From: Escherichia coli | GTDB taxonomy: Bacteria; Pseudomonadota; Gammaproteobacteria; Enterobacterales; Enterobacteriaceae | DNA length: 64,000 nt | Direction: 5' to 3' (one strand) | Assembly: GCF_044324875.1 (NCBI RefSeq) | Contig: NZ_CP172185.1 | Part shown: one piece after another, positions 39,269-47,480 of the stretch | Numbering within the stretch: position 1 is the first letter of the stretch | How the letters are laid out: each line of letters starts with the position of its first letter | Position numbers and translations under genes: made by a program | The notes under the pieces: generated by a model | Databases searched by the model: none | What the model saw: only the letters and a program-made list of their open reading frames with translations | What the model was told of the DNA's origin: nothing

Positions 39269-42184
39269 TTACTGAGTCAGTTTTTTTATCAGGTCGTGAA
39301 TTTTATCACCTGAAAACTGGGTCATGAAAGTTATCTTTATGGATTTACTGATTTGTTCGAAGAGTTTCTGTGCATGTTTTATTTTATCGCGTTCTTCATG
39401 TCTGAGTTCACGTTTGCCATCAACATTTTTGGTTTCAATAATAAGGTTCAGATAATCACCCTTTGACGTGTTTACAACATAAGCGAAGTCAGGGGAGTAA
39501 GTGTATCCTCCCGCTACAGGAATTTTTATTGAATTTTTGGGGATCTTTGTGAAGACAATGACTGACCTGACCTCACCCTCTGTCATATTGAGTTTTTCAA
39601 GTTCTGAATCATAAAATACTTCTTCAAAAAGATAAGAGTCCAGTGGAGGGCTTGTATTATCCTGTAAAACGCCAAGATCACTTGACAATACATCAGCAAG
39701 ATAACCGCCGTCTGCATTGGTGAATTTCGTGGGATGGACAGTTCCTGATATTACATTATACCCAAGGCTGAATTTACTGAACGAGTTATTAAGCAAATAC
39801 TTGCTGAAACCAGATTTAATTTTTCTGATTGTCTGAATGTTAAGGTATTCAGTTATATTTATGATGTCTTTTATATCACAAAAAACCTTATGCATGGTGT
39901 CATGTTTGACAAAAATAGTCTGTGATAATTTATCAAGGAATTCACGATAGCTCATTGTGTTTATTTTGTGAAAATTATCCTCATCAACACTGAGAATGCT
40001 TTTCGACATTGCCGTATCATTATGGATATAAATTCTTTCAATACGAGTATGAGCACCGGATTTGGTAAATCTGTCTGCTTCTTCCAGCATAAACGCTCTG
40101 AAAAGGGATAAAAACTCACGTTCACTTTTTATTTTATACTCAATCACGACCTTTTGATTGATCAAGTCCCATAGTTCTTTCAGCTCACTGAACTTACCAA
40201 CACGCATTTTAGTGCGTCTTTTTCCATCAGAGGCTTTTTTTATTTTGCCTGGTTTCACTCCTGCAGGAAATGCTGCCGGATATCTGGCTTTTAAGCGGCT
40301 ATAGGCATCTGAATCTTTGAAGTTATCATTATCATCAATGATCTCATCATCAAAAATTTCATTCAAGAGTGTTCTGGAGGAAAGCTCCGGATATTGAGAC
40401 AGGATTTTATCCTTAAGTTCCTGAGTAAACTTACCTGGAACAGTCTCTTTGAAAGAACTATCGTTGATCTCTTTGACAAGAGAATCGACAAAATCTTTTT
40501 CTGTAAAATCAACATAATAGTTGAGGGTAAAATTGCGGTCTTTCACACGACACATGTATTCATTCACCGGAAGACGTAAACCACGCCCTACTTCCTGAAG
40601 TTTAGATGTGGTGCTACCGCTCGAACGGAGCTTACAAATCTGAAAGACATTTGGGTTATCCCATCCCTCACGCAACGTCCATTTAGAGAAAATGAAACGG
40701 CGAGGATTTTCTAAAGACAATAGAAGCTCTTTATCATGAAGGATTTCGTTGATTTCCTGCTCAATTTTATCATCTTTATCACTATTATCTTTTGAAAAAT
40801 AACCACCATGAACAGAAGATATATCCTTAACAGTTTTTTCAAGGTAGTTTCTGTAAAACTCATCTTTTTCTGTTTTTAACAGTTCATTTGCTTCTGCCAA
40901 AACGTATTCTTCGAACTTAGTTTTCAGGCTTCCTGCAATATCATTACCATCACGATAGCCTTCAATGTCATCAATGAAGAAAAGAGTAAGAGGTTTTATG
41001 CGTGGCCTTTGTGTCAGATACTCTTTTTCTAACTTAAAGTGTTCTTTGACAGCTTTACGTATCATGTTATCAGCAAGTGTCTGATCGTAAGAATAGGGGT
41101 TTATCGAACTACCAATTTTTAGCTCAATACCATTACTCAACACTGCTGTATTCTTATTTAAAGCATCAAGAGTTAAATCATGGATCGCACTATGCGTCTT
41201 AGATAGTGATTCACCTTTGGCTAACTTAAAAATTTTTTTATTATTATTTTCGTTCAGTTCAAATGTAGCTTCTTTTCCGTCAGATTTGACCAACTTGAGG
41301 TTGGCATTACCATCACCAACTATATCCTCAATGTATGCATCAATACCTTTAACAAGATCTTCATTGAAGGCATCTACGGCTGTAAGACGATAAACTAAGT
41401 TCTTATATCCTTCACTAAAGGTTGCACCATAGCGGATGATATATTGGGCATTAAATTTTTGAATATGTTCCCATGTCTTTTTACCAGTAGGAAATTTATG
41501 AGGCTCATCAATGATAATGAATGGTTTTATCGCACTAAGTGCAGAAAATGGGGTATCAAACTGATTATTAAGCAAGCCAACATCATAAGTGTCAGTTAAA
41601 GACTTAGAGTTAATCATCCCTGAATTGATCACAAGAATGTGTATATATTTCTTATTGAAATTACTTGCTTCAACAAAATCATGGATAGCTTGAGGCATAT
41701 ACGATTTTGTATTTTTACCCGAACGTTTCTGACTTTCAACAACGTAAGTCTTTAGTTCACGCTCGTAATCATCTCGAAAGTGTTCTTTTATAGCATCGCT
41801 TTTTAAAAAGTTAACGGTTCCGGCTTTGATCGATAGGGTAGGAACAATGATGATAAACTTGTTAATACCAAATGATTTGTTCAGGTCAAAAATTGTTTTG
41901 GTGTAAGTATAAGTTTTACCTGTACCTGTCTCCATAGAAACATCAATTACGTTGCTTTTAGCATCGTAATTATCTTTTGAGTGCTCAATACCATTGAACT
42001 CCTGAACATTTTTTATGTTGTTGTAGTATTGTTGTTCAGATAGATTCAGTTCTGGATTAGCTAACAGGCGAATTGCAACATGATCCGTCTGATGAGGTAT
42101 GGCGGATACAAAGACATTCATTACCGAATCAACGCCAGCCTTTTGATGAGGTAAATTTTTTTCGAATGTGAACCCTTTAGACAT
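39269..42184 (-). CDS. res: Type III restriction enzyme, Res subunit
   Basis: 971 aa; Walker A METGTGKT; DEAH-like IIIDEPH; immediately downstream of mod. Confidence 0.8.
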   Translation of the reverse strand: MSKGFTFEKNLPHQKAGVDSVMNVFVSAIPHQTDHVAIRLLANPELNLSEQQYYNNIKNVQEFNGIEHSKDNYDAKSNVIDVSMETGTGKTYTYTKTIFDLNKSFGINKFIIIVPTLSIKAGTVNFLKSDAIKEHFRDDYERELKTYVVESQKRSGKNTKSYMPQAIHDFVEASNFNKKYIHILVINSGMINSKSLTDTYDVGLLNNQFDTPFSALSAIKPFIIIDEPHKFPTGKKTWEHIQKFNAQYIIRYGATFSEGYKNLVYRLTAVDAFNEDLVKGIDAYIEDIVGDGNANLKLVKSDGKEATFELNENNNKKIFKLAKGESLSKTHSAIHDLTLDALNKNTAVLSNGIELKIGSSINPYSYDQTLADNMIRKAVKEHFKLEKEYLTQRPRIKPLTLFFIDDIEGYRDGNDIAGSLKTKFEEYVLAEANELLKTEKDEFYRNYLEKTVKDISSVHGGYFSKDNSDKDDKIEQEINEILHDKELLLSLENPRRFIFSKWTLREGWDNPNVFQICKLRSSGSTTSKLQEVGRGLRLPVNEYMCRVKDRNFTLNYYVDFTEKDFVDSLVKEINDSSFKETVPGKFTQELKDKILSQYPELSSRTLLNEIFDDEIIDDNDNFKDSDAYSRLKARYPAAFPAGVKPGKIKKASDGKRRTKMRVGKFSELKELWDLINQKVVIEYKIKSEREFLSLFRAFMLEEADRFTKSGAHTRIERIYIHNDTAMSKSILSVDEDNFHKINTMSYREFLDKLSQTIFVKHDTMHKVFCDIKDIINITEYLNIQTIRKIKSGFSKYLLNNSFSKFSLGYNVISGTVHPTKFTNADGGYLADVLSSDLGVLQDNTSPPLDSYLFEEVFYDSELEKLNMTEGEVRSVIVFTKIPKNSIKIPVAGGYTYSPDFAYVVNTSKGDYLNLIIETKNVDGKRELRHEERDKIKHAQKLFEQISKSIKITFMTQFSGDKIHDLIKKLTQ

Positions 42185-42186
42185 GA

Positions 42187-44223
42187 TTAGTTTCTTACCA
42201 CCAAATCTAAATCAATAGATTTTTTATTAGCATAACTTTTTAGTGCTTCATTGAGTTCCATCTGTTTCGCACTTTCGAAGTTGCTGCCATAAAATACAAC
42301 TTTGTTAGGGGCAAAGTCTTTGTCTGCATCCAGCTTTTGAAGTAAAGCTTTCAAAGCCTCACTTGTGAAATTAGGCGCAATTAGATATAGCCGACCATCG
42401 CACAAGTGTGCTTTGTAGCCATTAAGGTCAATATCTTCAATTGGTGTTGTTAGCAAGCTGCCATCATACACGCACCATGTCGTCAATAGAGTGTCATACT
42501 GCTCTGGTGTCAATACAGCATCGTCAAAGAAACTAAGATTAGAAAGCGTAAGTTCAGACTCATCTTTCACTCGAAAATTATGAACTGTTTCAAATATTTT
42601 AAATCCCAAATCTCCATTATAATTAGGATTATCTTTTTTCAGCTTTTTTCCTGCCTTAATAATTCTGTCTTTTGTTATATTGAAGATGGATTTATACCCT
42701 TCTTTATAGGCTTGTTTCTTTTTATCTGTTTCTTCATCTAATTGAACACAGATGAAGTTTCTTTTCCTGCCGTCTTCAATATTTAACTCCAGAATACCAT
42801 GAGCTGTAGTTCCAGAGCCAGCAAAAAAGTCAAGATAAATGTCTTTATCTTCGGTTTTTACTGAACCAAATAGTGTTTTTATTAAACTTGTTGGCTTCGG
42901 GTAGGAGAAATATCCTTTCCCACCAAAAAGATTTTCAACCTCAACACCACCATCACTTTTAGTTGAAATAATTGATCTTAGTAAAAACTCTTCAACTTCA
43001 TCTAAAAATTTAACCGAACTGGGTTGGGTGTTTTCTGTACTGGCAAACCAAATTCCACCACAAATAACGCTACCATCATGTAGTTTTTTGATATCTGCAT
43101 ACTTTCCATCTATTCTTTTTGCAATATGATTAAAAGTGCCTTCTTTCCAACGCCAGCCTCTGTCTGGGATTTTGACAGGGTTATTAGTCAAAGGGTGCAA
43201 TACTTCATACGTGGGTCCAAATGAATCTGCATTAGGCCAGCTCATATTAATTTTACCCCATGGCCTATAATCTTCGTTCAAACAGTTGTAAAGAGTAATT
43301 CCACGATCATATCCGTTGGAGCTGTAGAATTTTTTGAGTTGCTGCTCTGCTTTATCTAATGGCACCTTCTCCTTTTTTAACTTTTCAATAAACTGATATA
43401 CATCATCAATACCATCTTTCCGCATTAAAAATTCTTTACTTATTTCGTTATTCTTCGCATAAGCAAGGATGTACTCATGGATATTACCAATACCCTTATC
43501 ATTTTTAGGGATACGTTTATTCCATACAATATTTTCTATGAAATTTGCTTCGCCAAAAATTTCATCACAAATAGTTTTAAGTTGATTTAATTCATTTTCG
43601 TCAATCGAAATAAATATCACACCATCTTCACGTAGAAGCTCACGAGCAATATATAAACGAGGATAAATGAACGTTAACCATGCGCTATGGCTGCTTGAAC
43701 CATTCGTGGTAAATTCAAGTATACGTTTAGCCTCATCAAGATCGATACCTGCCAGATCAGAAAGCTGTTCAGGTGTAAACTTGCGATCATCGTTATAGGC
43801 GAATCCATCCTTACCTGTATTGTATGGTGGATCAATGTAAATCATCTTCACCTTTTCAGAGTAAGCATTAACCATATGCTTCAATACTTCGAGGTTATCC
43901 CCTTTGATTAACAGATTCTGACTGTTTTTGTTCTCTTCACGTTGGTTATGGTCTTTATCTTCGGAGAGTAATGTCTTCGGCGGCAAGTTAGCTAACAGAC
44001 GGGCATAGGATTTACCAAGCCAGTTCAGGCTGTATGATTCTTTGGAGAGTTCAACATCCGATGATTTGACGATTTCAAGCAATTTTTCCTGAATGAACGC
44101 TCCATTTTTATCAAAACACTGTGGAAAGTTAGCCTTTAAAATCGCAAGCTGTTTACTGTTTGTGGTTTCAGTTTCAGAGAAAAGAGTTTCTTTTTTCAGT
44201 TGAAATTGGGGTTGTGTATTCAT
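42187..44223 (-). CDS. mod: Type III restriction-modification methyltransferase, Mod subunit
   Basis: 678 aa; DPPY motif (IYIDPPYNTG); AdoMet motif FFAGSGTT; GGAGG RBS. Confidence 0.8.
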   Translation of the reverse strand: MNTQPQFQLKKETLFSETETTNSKQLAILKANFPQCFDKNGAFIQEKLLEIVKSSDVELSKESYSLNWLGKSYARLLANLPPKTLLSEDKDHNQREENKNSQNLLIKGDNLEVLKHMVNAYSEKVKMIYIDPPYNTGKDGFAYNDDRKFTPEQLSDLAGIDLDEAKRILEFTTNGSSSHSAWLTFIYPRLYIARELLREDGVIFISIDENELNQLKTICDEIFGEANFIENIVWNKRIPKNDKGIGNIHEYILAYAKNNEISKEFLMRKDGIDDVYQFIEKLKKEKVPLDKAEQQLKKFYSSNGYDRGITLYNCLNEDYRPWGKINMSWPNADSFGPTYEVLHPLTNNPVKIPDRGWRWKEGTFNHIAKRIDGKYADIKKLHDGSVICGGIWFASTENTQPSSVKFLDEVEEFLLRSIISTKSDGGVEVENLFGGKGYFSYPKPTSLIKTLFGSVKTEDKDIYLDFFAGSGTTAHGILELNIEDGRKRNFICVQLDEETDKKKQAYKEGYKSIFNITKDRIIKAGKKLKKDNPNYNGDLGFKIFETVHNFRVKDESELTLSNLSFFDDAVLTPEQYDTLLTTWCVYDGSLLTTPIEDIDLNGYKAHLCDGRLYLIAPNFTSEALKALLQKLDADKDFAPNKVVFYGSNFESAKQMELNEALKSYANKKSIDLDLVVRN

Positions 44224-44432
44224 AACGCACCTCCAGAATGCACGGAGGTACTTGACGCGGAATTTTTATACAGGCATATTGTTGCGTTGCGTTGCGTTGC
44301 GTTGCGTTGCGTTGCGTTGCGTTTCGTTGCGTTGCGTTGCGTTGCGTTGCGTTGCGTTGCGTTGCGTTGCGTTGCGTTGCGTTGCGTTGCGTTGCGTTGC
44401 GTTGCGTTGCGTTGCGTTGCGTTGCGTTTCAT
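44220..44432 (-). CDS. repeat-encoded leader ORF (QRNAT)n overlapping mod start
   Basis: ATG at 44432 followed by the 5-mer tract; TGA overlaps mod ATG as ATGA. Confidence 0.35.
   Translation of the reverse strand: MKRNATQRNATQRNATQRNATQRNATQRNATQRNATKRNATQRNATQRNATICLYKNSASSTSVHSGGAL
44281..44425. repeat. pentanucleotide microsatellite (GTTGC)x29; GCAAC on mod strand
   Basis: 29 tandem units with one GTTTC variant. Confidence 0.9.
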
Positions 44433-44514
44433 TAAATAGCCTCGAGTTTCGTTTTACAGGTTTTTATTCTAACCTGAATTGTTGATTTTCTGAATAAGTC
44501 TGACGTCAGTTGTT

Positions 44515-44680
44515 ACGGGAAGGTATCAGAGTGGCTAGATGCACTGTGGCACGTCTCATGGCGGTTATGGGGCTTGCCGGCGTTCTCCGGGGGGTAAAGC
44601 TCCGTGCTACTGTCACCTGGAACGCCGTTGCCGCAGGCGACCGCGTAAACCGTCTGTACCGCCCGGGCCCAATATTAAGA
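44515..44680 (+). pseudogene. IS3-family (IS629-like) transposase OrfB N-terminal fragment
   Basis: GIRVARCTVARLMAVMGLAGVLRG... resembles IS3-family OrfB; no start or DDE core. Confidence 0.35.
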
Positions 44681-44709
44681 ACTAACGTCATACCAGGGAC
44701 GTTGTCTGA

Positions 44710-45723
44710 ATGGATGAGAAGCTAAAACATGCGGATTTATCGTCTTTGCCAGAGCAGGTGAGGGTTGCCGCTAGGGAGCTTGTTGACCTGAAGTTTCGTA
44801 TCGATATGGCAGCAAGAGGCGGTACGTCAGGGATACCACTTGACCTGCATGGGAGGATGACAGGAGGAGAATGGGGGCCGCATTGCGGGCTGGAATTTTT
44901 CTGCAGCATCATTCCTTTTTTCCCGCGAGATTTTGAAACCTGTTCAGTAACTGAAATGTTGGTTCCTACCTTACATACCTTCGGCTGCAACTGGCGTTGG
45001 TGGCCCGATCGTTATTGTAGCGACAAAGATGAACACTATATACGGCGTCACATTTTTTCTGATTACGGGCTGAAAAGTACGAGCTATACCTTCATTCCTC
45101 AGTTGGGATTGTTCTGCCCGAGTGAAGGTAAAAATCGTGTTAACTTCTGCCGCCATCACGGTATCGAATATATCCCCGCACAGGTTTATTCCCATGATTA
45201 CCCAGAAGCAAATCGAATCTCTGTGTACGTTCAGGATACTGCCGGAGGGCTGGATGTGTGGGCCGTTCTTGATAATCGCTATGTTCAGAAGGTTACTCAC
45301 TATGCCTTTGCGCTCCCACTTTTGTGCGCTTATGGGGTAGAGTTCCCAGGTAAGTGGCCAGCAGGATGGCCATCGATATCGGACCTCCTGGCTAATCAAC
45401 TGTGTTGCACTGATGACACAACCTTTCATAAACCCGTGATCGATATGCAAGCTGTCAGGGATACGCTGGATCGTGATGAGAACAGCAGAGAGGATGGGGA
45501 GATGTATGTCAAAACCAATGTGGTTGAGCTGCCGCTGGCCGGGCTGGTTCGCTTCATTCTGATCGCAATGTTACTGAGTTTAGGTGCGTTGTTCATCCAC
45601 GAGGTACTGGATGAGGGAAGCCTGTCCAGGATTGCACTGGGAATAAGCACTTTCACGGCTGGCGTGGTTGCTTCGTTTTTTATCCCAGCGTTCCGTATCA
45701 AGAAAAAATATCTTCGCAAATAG
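44710..45723 (+). CDS. hypothetical protein with C-terminal membrane anchor
   Basis: 337 aa, Cys/Trp/His-rich domain then two hydrophobic helices. Confidence 0.4.
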   Translation: MDEKLKHADLSSLPEQVRVAARELVDLKFRIDMAARGGTSGIPLDLHGRMTGGEWGPHCGLEFFCSIIPFFPRDFETCSVTEMLVPTLHTFGCNWRWWPDRYCSDKDEHYIRRHIFSDYGLKSTSYTFIPQLGLFCPSEGKNRVNFCRHHGIEYIPAQVYSHDYPEANRISVYVQDTAGGLDVWAVLDNRYVQKVTHYAFALPLLCAYGVEFPGKWPAGWPSISDLLANQLCCTDDTTFHKPVIDMQAVRDTLDRDENSREDGEMYVKTNVVELPLAGLVRFILIAMLLSLGALFIHEVLDEGSLSRIALGISTFTAGVVASFFIPAFRIKKKYLRK

Positions 45724-45739
45724 TTGTGGCATTTCTTGA

Positions 45740-45993
45740 ACACTTTTTCGAGACAGGTTCAACCGCAGGCATTCAGGCCAAACATGCGGTTAAACTACGT
45801 ATTCAATTAACTGCCCTAAATATGGCTAAGCGCCCGGACGATATGTCTGTCTGCACCTAGGTGGAAATTACACCCTCTAAAGGGAGCTGATCTTAGAGGT
45901 CATTGGGAAATATCAGTAAACTCTAACTGGCGAATTACCTTTCGATTTGAAGGCGAAGACGCAATTCTGGTTGACTATCAGGATTATCATTGA
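45740..45993 (+). pseudogene. HigB-like (RelE/killer family) toxin gene, frameshifted
   Basis: C-terminus KLHPLKGADLRGHWEISVNSNWRITFRFEGEDAILVDYQDYH; N-part in another frame ending TAG near 45858. Confidence 0.45.
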
Positions 45994-46001
45994 GGGATAA
46001 C

Positions 46002-46746
46002 TGAACCGCCCCGGGAATCCTGGAGACTAAACTCCCTGATAAAGAGGTAAACAGAATGACTAAAAATACTCGTTTTTCCCCCGAAGTCCGTCAGAGGGCG
46101 ATTCGTATGGTTCTGGAAAGTCAGGGCGAATATGACTCACAGTGGGCGGCAATTTGTTCCATTGCCCCAAAGATTGGCTGTACACCGGAGACTCTGCGTG
46201 TCTGGGTACGCCAGCATGAGCGGGATACCGGAGGCGGTGATGGCGGGCTCACCACCGCTGAACGTCAGCGTCTGAAAGAGCTGGAACGTGAAAATCGTGA
46301 ACTGCGCCGCATCGTCTATGGAAACGACATTCGTGCTGGATGCTCTGGAGCAGGCGTTATGGGCCCGTCGACCGTCCGGCACAGTCCATCACAGTGATAA
46401 AGGTTCTCAGTATGTATCGCTGGCCTACACACAGCGGCTTAAGGAAGCCGGATTACTGGCATCAACAGGAAGTACTGGTGACTCGTATGACAACGCGATG
46501 GCGGAGAGCATCAATGGCCTTTACAAAGCGGAGGTAATACACCGTAAGAGCTGGAAAAACCGGACAGAAGTGGAGCTGGCCACACTCACGTGGGTGGACT
46601 GGTATAACAATCGACGATTGCTGGAAAGGCTGGGCCATATCCCACCGGCAGAAGCAGAAAAAGCTTATTATGCTTCCATCGGAAACGATGATCTGGCAGC
46701 CTGAGTTCACAGATAAAACACTCTCCAGGAAACCCGGGGCGGTTCA
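46002..46746 (+). mobile_element. IS629-like (IS3 family) element with internal deletion
   Basis: terminal inverted repeats TGAACCGCCCCGGG...; OrfA 46056-46380 joined to OrfB C-terminus (to 46704); flanked by AAC/AAC. Confidence 0.6.
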
Positions 46747-46750
46747 AACT

Positions 46751-46959
46751 ATGAGTCGTATTCATAATCCCGCCACTCAGGCGCGGTTCTTCGTGAAGAT
46801 CTGGGAGATATGTCAGTCACAGACGCTGCCACCGCATTGGGCATTACTCGCACGGCGCTTTCCCGGATTCTGAACGAAAAAGCGGGTATTTCTGCGGATA
46901 TGGCGCTCCGTCTGGAATCAGCACTCGGAACCAGCGCCGAAATGTGGACAGGTATGTAA
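46751..46959 (+). pseudogene. HigA-like HTH antitoxin gene, frameshifted
   Basis: MSRIHNP... then frame switch to ...ALGITRTALSRILNEKAGISADMALRLESALGTSAEMW. Confidence 0.4.
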
Positions 46960-47159
46960 TCACAGTATGAGCTTTGGGTTGCTTCGCAAACTGCTCGCCC
47001 AAACATTCGCCCATTATTTCACCATGCCTGACATGCATTCCCCAACATTGGACGGGGAGCCGTCATGGAGGGGGCTACGCAGGAACCGCCGAAAGCACGC
47101 TGTTTTATATTTGTTTTATTGAATATAAGAGGAGGCCATAAAACGGCCCCCTTGTTTTT

Positions 47160-47480
47160 ATCAGAAAGAGTAACGGAAGCTGGCGTTCACCGCGTTATCC
47201 ACGTTGTACTTACCAAATGCCGATTTCTCAAACTCCAGACCAAAGCGGAGATTATCGCGAATTTCTGCATTCAGACCAACATTCATGAGCATACGTCCGT
47301 CTTTCTCGCCTTTGATGCGTTTTTCACCAGAGGCATCGCGCGGAACGGTTTCACTGTTTGCCAGAATGTCAAACTGGTAACCGAGGCCGGCACGGGCAGT
47401 GACTTTCCAGTCCTTACCAGAGAAGGTTTTACCGACATCGATACCGGTACGGCCAATCAGCGGGTTGAAGTCCTTTCTGG
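47160..47480 (-). pseudogene. outer-membrane beta-barrel protein gene fragment
   Basis: minus-strand reading ends ...NASFRYSF stop; no intact ORF. Confidence 0.3.

What the first reader, a model, noticed from the sequence alone, without database searches (positions are those of the whole stretch)
44515..46959. Decayed higBA-like toxin-antitoxin pair separated by an internally deleted IS629-like element
The HigB-like gene is frameshifted near 45858 and the HigA-like gene near 46770. Between them lies an IS629-like element reduced to about 745 bp (OrfA joined to the OrfB C-terminus) with intact terminal inverted repeats and a 3-bp duplication (AAC/AAC). A separate diverged OrfB N-terminal fragment sits at 44515-44680. 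This suggests repeated IS3-family activity and rearrangement in this part of the cargo.
Basis: partly seen in the sequence, partly recalled or inferred. Interest (0 to 1): 0.4.

Follow-up and report, generated by a model that had tools for sequence, protein, structure and literature searches.

The report
Dead higBA pair split by mini-IS629
A toxin-antitoxin gene pair on an E. coli conjugative island was already dead when a 745-bp crippled copy of insertion sequence IS629 landed between the two genes; the locus is ordinary, but the same crippled IS sits at several other sites, so it probably moves using transposase borrowed from full-length copies.

Summary
Window 45734-45993 is a higB pseudogene and 46751-47031 a higA pseudogene. 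A 745-bp IS629-group element (46002-46746; 25-nt inverted repeats; AAC/AAC duplication) lies in the spacer between them. A 162-bp relic of a different IS629 relative (86% identity) lies at 44496-44657.

Intact plasmid higBA pairs (93% identity) pinpoint the lesions:
- higB has lost its promoter and codons 1-9 and carries a 4-bp TGTC tandem duplication.
- higA has a 1-bp deletion and a Q70 stop codon.

None of these sits in a homopolymer. All recur in 8 independent complete genomes, including 2 STEC genomes with the empty site. They are therefore real, and they predate the IS insertion.

The interpretation needs one correction. The 565-bp internal deletion was very probably not made here. The identical junction occurs in 113 E. 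coli records at five or more sites. Three of these, including this one, have clean 3-bp duplications, verified empty sites and no full-length occupant. The element is best read as a non-autonomous IS629 derivative moved in trans.

NCBI's annotation pipeline already calls all four pseudogenes, so interest is low. The dispersed mini-IS629 is a modest addition.

The parts
44496..44657 (+). 162-bp relic of an IS629-related IS3-family orfB. It has neither IS end and is not part of the 745-bp element.
   Evidence: blastn to a full-length IS gives positions 586-747 at 86.4% identity with no gaps. PGAP annotates a partial IS3 family transposase here. The relic is also present in the empty-site allele L002.
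44710..45723 (+). Intact conserved hypothetical gene of 337 aa with two predicted C-terminal hydrophobic helices. It abuts the truncated 5' end of higB.
   Evidence: ORF listed. It has 47 homologous clusters across Enterobacterales and Aeromonas and no Pfam or NCBIfam match. In IncI-like plasmids it follows nikA-nikB. Its C-terminus is conserved in other contexts.
45734..45993 (+). higB pseudogene. The promoter and codons 1-9 are missing. A +4 frameshift comes from a TGTC tandem duplication at 45844-45851. The stop codon is at 45991-45993.
   Evidence: Alignment to intact plasmid higBA pairs L003, L004 and L005. In-silico repair restores the full HigB C-terminal 84 aa. Pfam PF05015 matches at 1.8e-15. 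PGAP marks it as frameshifted.
45999..46001 (.). Left copy of the 3-bp target-site duplication (AAC).
   Evidence: The empty site in L002 has one AAC.
46002..46746 (+). 745-bp IS629-group deletion derivative (IS629 minus 565 bp). IRL is 46002-46026 and IRR is 46722-46746. The deletion junction is at 46309-46311. The OrfA' ORF runs 46056-46397 (85 aa of OrfA plus a 28-aa out-of-frame tail). The OrfB C-terminal remnant runs about 46312-46704.
   Evidence: It is 744/745 identical to full copy L007. The frameshift pseudoknot region (IS positions 336-452) and NF033516 model positions 74-253 are absent.
46747..46749 (.). Right copy of the 3-bp target-site duplication (AAC).
46751..47031 (+). higA pseudogene. 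It has a 1-bp deletion between 46773 and 46774 and a CAA-to-TAA nonsense codon at 46957-46959.
   Evidence: Alignment and repair. PGAP marks it as frameshifted with an internal stop.

Best explanation
The region is a non-functional remnant in the cargo of an integrative conjugative element. Four steps are proposed, and each is marked as shown or inferred.

Step 1 (shown). A plasmid-type higBA cassette was joined to an unrelated 337-aa gene. In the process it lost its promoter and the first nine higB codons.

Step 2 (shown). higB then gained a 4-bp duplication. higA gained a 1-bp deletion and a stop codon. No toxin or full antitoxin can be made.

Step 3 (inferred). In a poultry-associated sublineage of the island, a 745-bp element inserted into the 9-bp higB-higA spacer and duplicated AAC. 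This element keeps both IS629 ends and the first 85 codons of orfA. It lacks the programmed-frameshift site, the N-terminal half of OrfB and the first catalytic aspartate, so it cannot make transposase. It most likely arrived already deleted. The likely route is the copy-out-paste-in pathway of IS3-family elements, using OrfAB transposase from a full-length IS629-group copy elsewhere in the cell.

Step 4 (shown). The 162-bp fragment at 44496-44657 is an older, independent relic of a different IS629 relative.
For: Lesions and their order:
- Alignment to intact pairs and to the empty-site allele.
- The same lesions occur in 8 complete genomes.
- No promoter-like site lies in 45600-47150.

Anatomy of the element.

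Arrival already deleted:
- A 60-bp probe across the deletion junction is contiguous in 113 E. coli records from 107 genomes, plus 4 Klebsiella plasmids.
- The complete 745-bp element lies in the ICE with TSD AAC.
- It lies beside a nanE-like gene in 3 chromosomes with TSD CTC.
- It lies inside malS in strain 1517k with TSD TAC.
- It lies beside a nikB remnant on ColV-type plasmids (108 records) and on a 5.7-kb Mob plasmid.
- Reconstructed empty sites with one target copy are found intact at 100% identity in 5420 genomes (malS) and 144 genomes (nanE-adjacent).
- No full-length IS occupies the ICE, nanE or malS sites in 5426 genomes.

Transposase source and precedent:
- A full-length copy 744/745 identical, annotated with an intact programmed frameshift, is present in one of the carrier genomes.
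- An IS629 derivative with its transposase gene replaced is acted on by transposase expressed from outside the element, according to bioRxiv 10.1101/2023.06.07.543989 summarising Kusumoto 2011.
- That miniature inverted-repeat elements (MITEs) derive from ISs by internal deletion and are mobilised in trans is the standard view (PMC3189936).
Against: - Transposition in trans was not observed, only inferred from distribution.
- Each clean site is carried by few genomes (6, 3 and 1). The absence of a full-length occupant is therefore a small-sample argument.
- Two of the five sites, the ColV plasmid and pEC332_05, lack a clean duplication.
- Copies fall into two variants that differ at 7 positions, three of them clustered at 639-643. 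Mosaic copies also exist. Recombination or gene conversion among IS copies therefore does occur and could in principle spread the deletion.
- From my own knowledge, not tested here: IS3-family transposases such as that of IS911 act preferentially in cis, which would make trans-mobilisation inefficient.
Confidence: 0.75

Rival explanations
1. A full-length IS629-group element inserted between higB and higA. It was later converted to the deleted form by homologous recombination or gene conversion with a deleted copy elsewhere, for example the ColV-plasmid copy in the same cell.
For: - Carrier strain TUM1886 holds both a chromosomal and a plasmid copy.
- The copies form two variants with a clustered 3-nt difference, and mosaic copies exist in metagenome contigs. 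Exchange between IS copies therefore happens.
Against: - This route needs two events per site at three or more sites, where transposition of the deleted element needs one.
- No full-length occupant is seen at the ICE, nanE-adjacent or malS sites in 5426 genomes.
- The window copy (variant A) differs at 7 positions from the ColV-plasmid copy (variant B) in the same strain.
Confidence: 0.13
2. One reading: a full-length IS inserted here and then suffered the 565-bp internal deletion in situ, as part of local IS-driven rearrangement of the cargo.
For: - A 2-bp CA microhomology lies at the junction, which is compatible with slippage or illegitimate recombination.
- The neighbourhood holds other relics, namely the IS fragment and the truncated higB.
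Against: - The identical junction occurs at four or more other sites in 107 genomes.
- Independent recurrence of the same 565-bp deletion on 2 bp of homology is very unlikely.
- This locus could be the place where the deletion first arose. However, its copy carries a private T at position 39, where the copies sampled at the four other E. coli sites (L010, L011, L013, L015, L017 and pEC332_05) and both full-length references compared have G. The one exception is a metagenome copy, L019, which is 100% identical to the window copy and sits in a different context without a duplication.
Confidence: 0.04
3. The frameshifts and the stop codon are sequencing or assembly errors, and the toxin-antitoxin pair is intact apart from the IS.
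For: None found.
Against: - The lesions are identical in 8 complete genomes from different laboratories and hosts.
- None lies in a homopolymer.
- The loss of the higB 5' end is a structural junction with another gene.
Confidence: 0.01

Closest known systems
Plasmid-borne higBA type II toxin-antitoxin pairs, e.g. WP_024166187.1/WP_001081196.1 on pCFSAN004181P and WP_059331045.1/WP_059331041.1 on E. coli AHB6 plasmid 3
   Same: - The toxin gene comes first and the antitoxin second, 8 bp apart.
- Nucleotide identity over the retained part is 93%.
- The repaired products match PF05015 and TIGR02607.
   Different: Here the promoter and nine codons of higB are gone, both genes are frameshifted, higA has a nonsense codon and an IS derivative splits the operon. 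The locus is a pseudogene pair, not a working module.
IS629 and its isoforms IS1203 and IS3411 (IS3 family, 1310 bp)
   Same: - The terminal inverted repeats are the same.
- It makes a 3-bp target duplication.
- The retained 745 bp are 99.9% identical to a 1310-bp full-length copy. That copy is 95.5-95.9% identical to elements that depositors label IS629.
- IS1203 and IS3411 are treated as IS629 isoforms in PMC3271280.
   Different: It lacks IS positions about 309-875: the end of orfA, the slippery site and pseudoknot, and the N-terminal half of orfB. It therefore cannot make OrfAB transposase.
MITEs and other non-autonomous IS deletion derivatives
   Same: - Both ends are intact and there is no transposase.
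- Copies lie at several sites with target duplications.
- The presumed dependence on the parental IS transposase is the same (PMC3189936).
   Different: - At 745 bp it is larger than the usual MITE of under 300 bp.
- It still carries a truncated orfA with its helix-turn-helix region.
- Copy number is low, at 1-2 per genome.
- I found no prior description of this derivative in the searchable literature, but the search was limited and ISfinder was not available.
IS629 with an internal deletion in E. coli O55:H7 CB9615 (Rump et al. 2011, PMC3271280)
   Same: It is an internally deleted IS629 located in a chromosomal mobile region.
   Different: That deletion is 86 bp and was described as unique to one site. 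It is not the 565-bp deletion seen here.

Membership tests
HigB toxin (Pfam PF05015, RelE/ParE superfamily) | Sequence matches the family profile | tested here: met
   The repaired translation matches PF05015 at 1.8e-15 over model positions 7-91 of 91. It is 93% identical at the nucleotide level to intact annotated toxins.
HigB toxin (Pfam PF05015, RelE/ParE superfamily) | Complete open reading frame with a start codon | tested here: not met
   Codons 1-9 are absent and a 4-bp duplication at 45844-45851 shifts the frame. It is a pseudogene, not a member in working order.
HigB toxin (Pfam PF05015, RelE/ParE superfamily) | Ribosome-dependent mRNA cleavage activity | not testable with these tools
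   This needs expression of the repaired gene and a toxicity or cleavage assay.
HigA antitoxin (NCBIfam TIGR02607) | Score above the curated cutoff | tested here: met
HigA antitoxin (NCBIfam TIGR02607) | Complete open reading frame | tested here: not met
   A 1-bp deletion lies at 46773/46774 and a TAA at 46957-46959.
higBA operon | Toxin gene upstream of the antitoxin gene in one transcription unit | tested here: inconclusive
   The gene order is kept. However, the promoter region has been replaced, no promoter-like site was found, and 745 bp now separate the genes.
IS3 family, IS629 group | Terminal inverted repeats of the family (5'-TG...CA-3') and a 3-bp target duplication | tested here: met
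IS3 family, IS629 group | At least 95% nucleotide identity to the named IS (the isoform convention quoted in PMC3189936) | tested here: inconclusive
   The near-identical full-length copy is 95.5-95.9% identical to elements that depositors label IS629. The ISfinder reference itself was not available, and some relatives are named IS1203 by PGAP.
IS3 family, IS629 group | orfA and orfB joined by a -1 programmed frameshift to give a DDE transposase | tested here: not met
   The deletion removes the pseudoknot region (IS positions 336-452) and NF033516 model positions 74-253. The element is a defective derivative.
Non-autonomous IS derivative (MITE-like) | Both ends intact, no transposase, copies at different sites with target duplications | tested here: met
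   Five sites were found. Three, including this one, have perfect 3-bp duplications and verified empty sites.
Non-autonomous IS derivative (MITE-like) | Small size (under about 300 bp) and no coding capacity, i.e. a MITE in the strict sense | tested here: not met
   It is 745 bp and has a 113-codon OrfA' ORF.
Non-autonomous IS derivative (MITE-like) | Mobilisation by the parental transposase supplied in trans | not testable with these tools
   This is inferred from distribution only.

The most novel reading that the evidence does not exclude
The 745-bp IS629 deletion derivative is a currently active non-autonomous element in poultry-associated E. coli. It uses IS629/IS1203 transposase supplied in trans. 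Its retained OrfA' peptide (the helix-turn-helix part of OrfA) is expressed and modulates transposition of the full-length elements. Its copies on ColV plasmids and on the ICE serve as homology for plasmid-chromosome recombination.
Probability: 0.15. Interest if true: 0.45.

Novelty: new member of a known kind. Interest (0 to 1): 0.22.

Why it matters
The locus itself matters little. It is one more decayed addiction module in island cargo, and the standard annotation pipeline already flags every piece.

Two points have some value.

First, the order of events is resolved. The pair died before the IS arrived, so this is not a case of an IS inactivating a toxin-antitoxin system.

Second, the 'IS remnant' is not a local scar. 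It is a defined 745-bp derivative found in about 2% of complete E. coli genomes, mostly at one conserved ColV-plasmid site. It has at least three clean independent insertions, one of which disrupts malS. If it really moves in trans, it would be a natural non-autonomous IS3-family element. That would be of interest because IS3-family transposases are thought to act mainly in cis. It would also be a useful marker for avian E. coli lineages and a possible recombination bridge between ColV plasmids and chromosomal islands.

Tried and rejected
- I considered that the 162-bp fragment at 44496-44657 might be the piece missing from the 745-bp element, because it maps inside the deleted interval (IS 586-747). 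I rejected this. It is only 86% identical, whereas the element is 99.9% identical to the same reference, and it is also present in the allele without the IS.
- A full-text search for the inverted-repeat sequence found no paper.
- Four further literature searches found no description of the 565-bp derivative. They did find a different 86-bp-deleted IS629.
- The metagenome scan of the junction gave 5 contigs. Three are the ColV site. One is a 1.1-kb contig joining the ColV left flank to the higA right flank. One is an identical copy in an IS-rich context without a duplication. I did not use these as evidence because assembly chimeras across a repeat cannot be excluded.
- The ColV-plasmid copy (flanks TAC/TAT) and the pEC332_05 copy (flanks GTT/GTA) lack clean duplications. 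In pEC332_05 the record start lies inside the IS and there is one mismatch in IRL. I counted them as sites but not as clean insertions.
- The promoter scan of 45600-47150 found nothing.
- Pfam and NCBIfam gave nothing for the 337-aa ORF.
- I did not pursue a possible 49-aa HigA' peptide (46810-46959, helix-turn-helix only). Its upstream GGGAG is only 2-3 nt from the ATG and no promoter was seen.
Full report
**Setting.** The window is E. coli chromosomal DNA. Region 44450-47150 is 100% identical over its whole length to five complete genomes: TUM1886, APEC E19035, GF43, CM2 and Br_112_kylling. It is 99.9% identical to a sixth, ECCNB12-2. Five of the six are recorded as from chicken or chicken meat. 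Annotation of the TUM1886 equivalent shows an integrative conjugative element. It carries TIGR037xx ICE genes, traD, a type IVb pilus with a pilV shufflon, iha, an intact ccdAB pair and a type III restriction-modification system. NCBI's pipeline already annotates the interval as follows:
- a partial IS3 transposase;
- a hypothetical protein;
- a frameshifted RelE/ParE toxin;
- a frameshifted integrase-core protein;
- a HigA antitoxin with a frameshift and an internal stop.

**The IS element.** The inverted repeats are at 46002-46026 and 46722-46746. They are 25 nt long and 92% complementary, with no matches expected by chance. AAC flanks both ends. Two STEC genomes, 2015C-3121 and STEC2018-553, carry the same locus without the element. 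There the sequence reads GGGATAACTATG with a single AAC. The duplication is therefore real, and the insertion lies in the 9-bp spacer between the higB stop codon and the higA start codon.

A 1310-bp full-length copy from one of the carrier genomes (L007) matches 744 of the 745 bases. The element lacks IS positions 309/311-873/875. That is a 565-bp deletion with a 2-bp CA microhomology, and the junction is at window 46309-46311. The deletion removes four things:
- the last 23 codons of orfA;
- the annotated frameshift pseudoknot (IS positions 336-452);
- the N-terminal half of orfB;
- NF033516 model positions 74-253.

What remains is a 113-codon OrfA' ORF (85 OrfA residues plus an out-of-frame tail) and the C-terminal 130 residues of OrfB. 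The full-length relative is 95.5-95.9% identical to elements that depositors label IS629. IS1203 and IS3411 are regarded as IS629 isoforms, and IS629 subtypes differ by 4-5% (PMC3271280). 'IS629-like' is therefore a fair name.

**The toxin-antitoxin pair.** A search with the IS-free allele found intact homologues on E. coli plasmids at 86-93% nucleotide identity. They are annotated as a RelE/ParE toxin followed by a HigA antitoxin. Alignment shows these changes:
- Homology to higB begins only at window 45734.
- A TGTC tandem duplication at 45844-45851 shifts the higB frame.
- A G is missing from higA between 46773 and 46774.
- higA codon 70 is TAA instead of CAA, at 46957-46959.
- One extra T lies in the spacer.

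Removing the duplication restores ...KRPDDMSAPRWKLHPLKGADLRGHWEISVNSNWRITFRFEGEDAILVDYQDYH. Adding the G restores a 93-residue HigA, apart from the stop codon. The repaired proteins match PF05015 at 1.8e-15 and TIGR02607 at 90 bits against a 47.7-bit cutoff.

Upstream of 45734 the DNA belongs to an intact 337-aa gene. Its C-terminus, FRIKKKYLRK, is conserved in homologues from unrelated contexts. The higB promoter and first nine codons were therefore lost at a junction between 45724 and 45734. No promoter-like site is present in 45600-47150.

All of these lesions are also present in the empty-site allele, so the pair was dead before the IS arrived. The lesions are not homopolymer errors, and they are identical in eight independently sequenced genomes.

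**The older IS relic.** Window 44496-44657 aligns without gaps to IS positions 586-747 at 86.4% identity. It has no IS ends and is present in the empty-site allele. It maps within the interval deleted from the 745-bp element, but it is far too divergent to be the missing piece.

**Where the interpretation changes.** A 60-bp probe centred on the deletion junction was searched at an E-value that excludes half-matches. It is contiguous in 113 E. coli records from 107 of 5426 genomes, and in 68 PLSDB plasmids that include 4 from Klebsiella. Retrieving examples showed the complete 745-bp element with the same junction at five sites:

| Site | Records | Flanks or duplication |
|---|---|---|
| ICE, higB-higA spacer | 6 chromosomes | AAC / AAC |
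| Beside a nanE-like gene (IMT5155, DE17, VTB96815v) | 3 chromosomes | CTC / CTC |
| Inside malS in strain 1517k, splitting the gene | 1 chromosome | TAC / TAC |
| Beside a nikB remnant on ColV-type IncF plasmids, including pAPEC-O2-ColV and TUM1886's own plasmid | 108 records | TAC / TAT, not clean |
| 5.7-kb Mob plasmid pEC332_05 | 1 plasmid | GTT / GTA, not clean |

The site counts add up to the chromosomal total from the junction probe: 6 + 3 + 1, plus 1 ColV-type site on a chromosome, makes 11.

Reconstructed empty sites carrying one copy of the target are found uninterrupted at 100% identity in 5420 genomes for malS and in 144 genomes for the nanE-adjacent site. No genome has a full-length IS at the ICE, nanE-adjacent or malS site.

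The simplest reading is that the deletion happened once, elsewhere. The deleted element has since transposed using OrfAB from full-length IS629-group copies. One such copy is 744/745 identical and is annotated with an intact programmed frameshift in carrier genome ECCNB12-2. IS629 derivatives that lack their own transposase gene do respond to transposase expressed from outside the element. Derivation by internal deletion followed by trans-mobilisation is the textbook origin of miniature elements.

**Caveats.**
- The copies fall into two variants that differ at seven positions, three of them within five bases. Mosaic copies occur in metagenome contigs. Exchange between IS copies therefore happens. 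Gene conversion of a full-length insertion remains a live rival, to which I give about 0.13.
- Independent in-situ deletion at this site would require the same 565-bp deletion, on 2 bp of homology, to recur at several sites. I give this about 0.04.
- Trans-mobilisation was not observed directly.
- The low copy number of one or two per genome fits the cis preference reported for IS3-family transposases. That point comes from my own knowledge and was not tested here.

**Verdict.** The locus is ordinary and already annotated. The only new element is that the 'remnant' is a dispersed, probably non-autonomous IS629 derivative, for which I found no prior description in a limited literature search.

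Noticed in passing
window 44281-44428: A pentanucleotide tandem repeat, (GTTGC) x 29.6, lies 58-205 nt upstream of the start codon of the type III restriction-modification methyltransferase gene (42187-44223, minus strand). The STEC allele L002 has only 19.6 copies. The copy number therefore varies between strains, which suggests phase-variable or length-tuned mod expression. Unusually, the repeat lies upstream of the reading frame rather than inside it.
   Followed up: partly
window 44710-45723: An intact 337-aa gene of unknown function with no Pfam or NCBIfam match. It is Cys/Trp-rich and has two C-terminal hydrophobic segments. It is conserved at about 337 aa down to 38-45% identity across Enterobacter, Buttiauxella, Serratia, Yersinia, Salmonella, Erwinia and Aeromonas. 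In IncI-like plasmids it sits directly after the nikA-nikB relaxase genes.
   Followed up: partly
L022 (metagenome contig SKEW01028529.1, 1120 bp): This contig joins the ColV-plasmid left flank of the 745-bp element to the ICE/higA right flank. The element itself is a mosaic, with variant B on the left and variant A on the right. This is either homologous recombination between the plasmid and island copies (plasmid-chromosome fusion) or an assembly chimera across the repeat.
   Followed up: no
L019 12989-13733 (metagenome contig SKEZ01001235.1): A copy 100% identical to the window's element, including the otherwise private T at position 39. It lies in a different, IS-rich context, with a DEAD/DEAH helicase on one side and sequence from near the nanE-adjacent site on the other. 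There is no target duplication, which suggests rearrangement between copies.
   Followed up: partly
window 39269-42184: The type III restriction endonuclease (res) gene is an intact 971-codon ORF in the window. It is annotated as frameshifted in TUM1886, a genome otherwise identical across the finding. The window therefore comes from another carrier strain, and the state of res varies among near-identical islands.
   Followed up: partly
window about 47161-47475, minus strand: Immediately downstream of the higA remnant, PGAP annotates a C-terminal fragment of an autotransporter outer-membrane beta-barrel gene that lacks its N-terminus. This is another relic in the same stretch of cargo.
   Followed up: no
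L008 28878-29449 (TUM1886 equivalent of the window, about 15 kb upstream of the finding): The same island carries an apparently intact ccdA-ccdB toxin-antitoxin pair. The island therefore keeps at least one addiction module while higBA has decayed.
   Followed up: no
L013 2222-2966 (E. coli 1517k chromosome): The 745-bp element interrupts malS, the periplasmic alpha-amylase gene, in a single avian isolate. It has a perfect TAC duplication and is the most recent-looking insertion of the derivative.
   Followed up: yes
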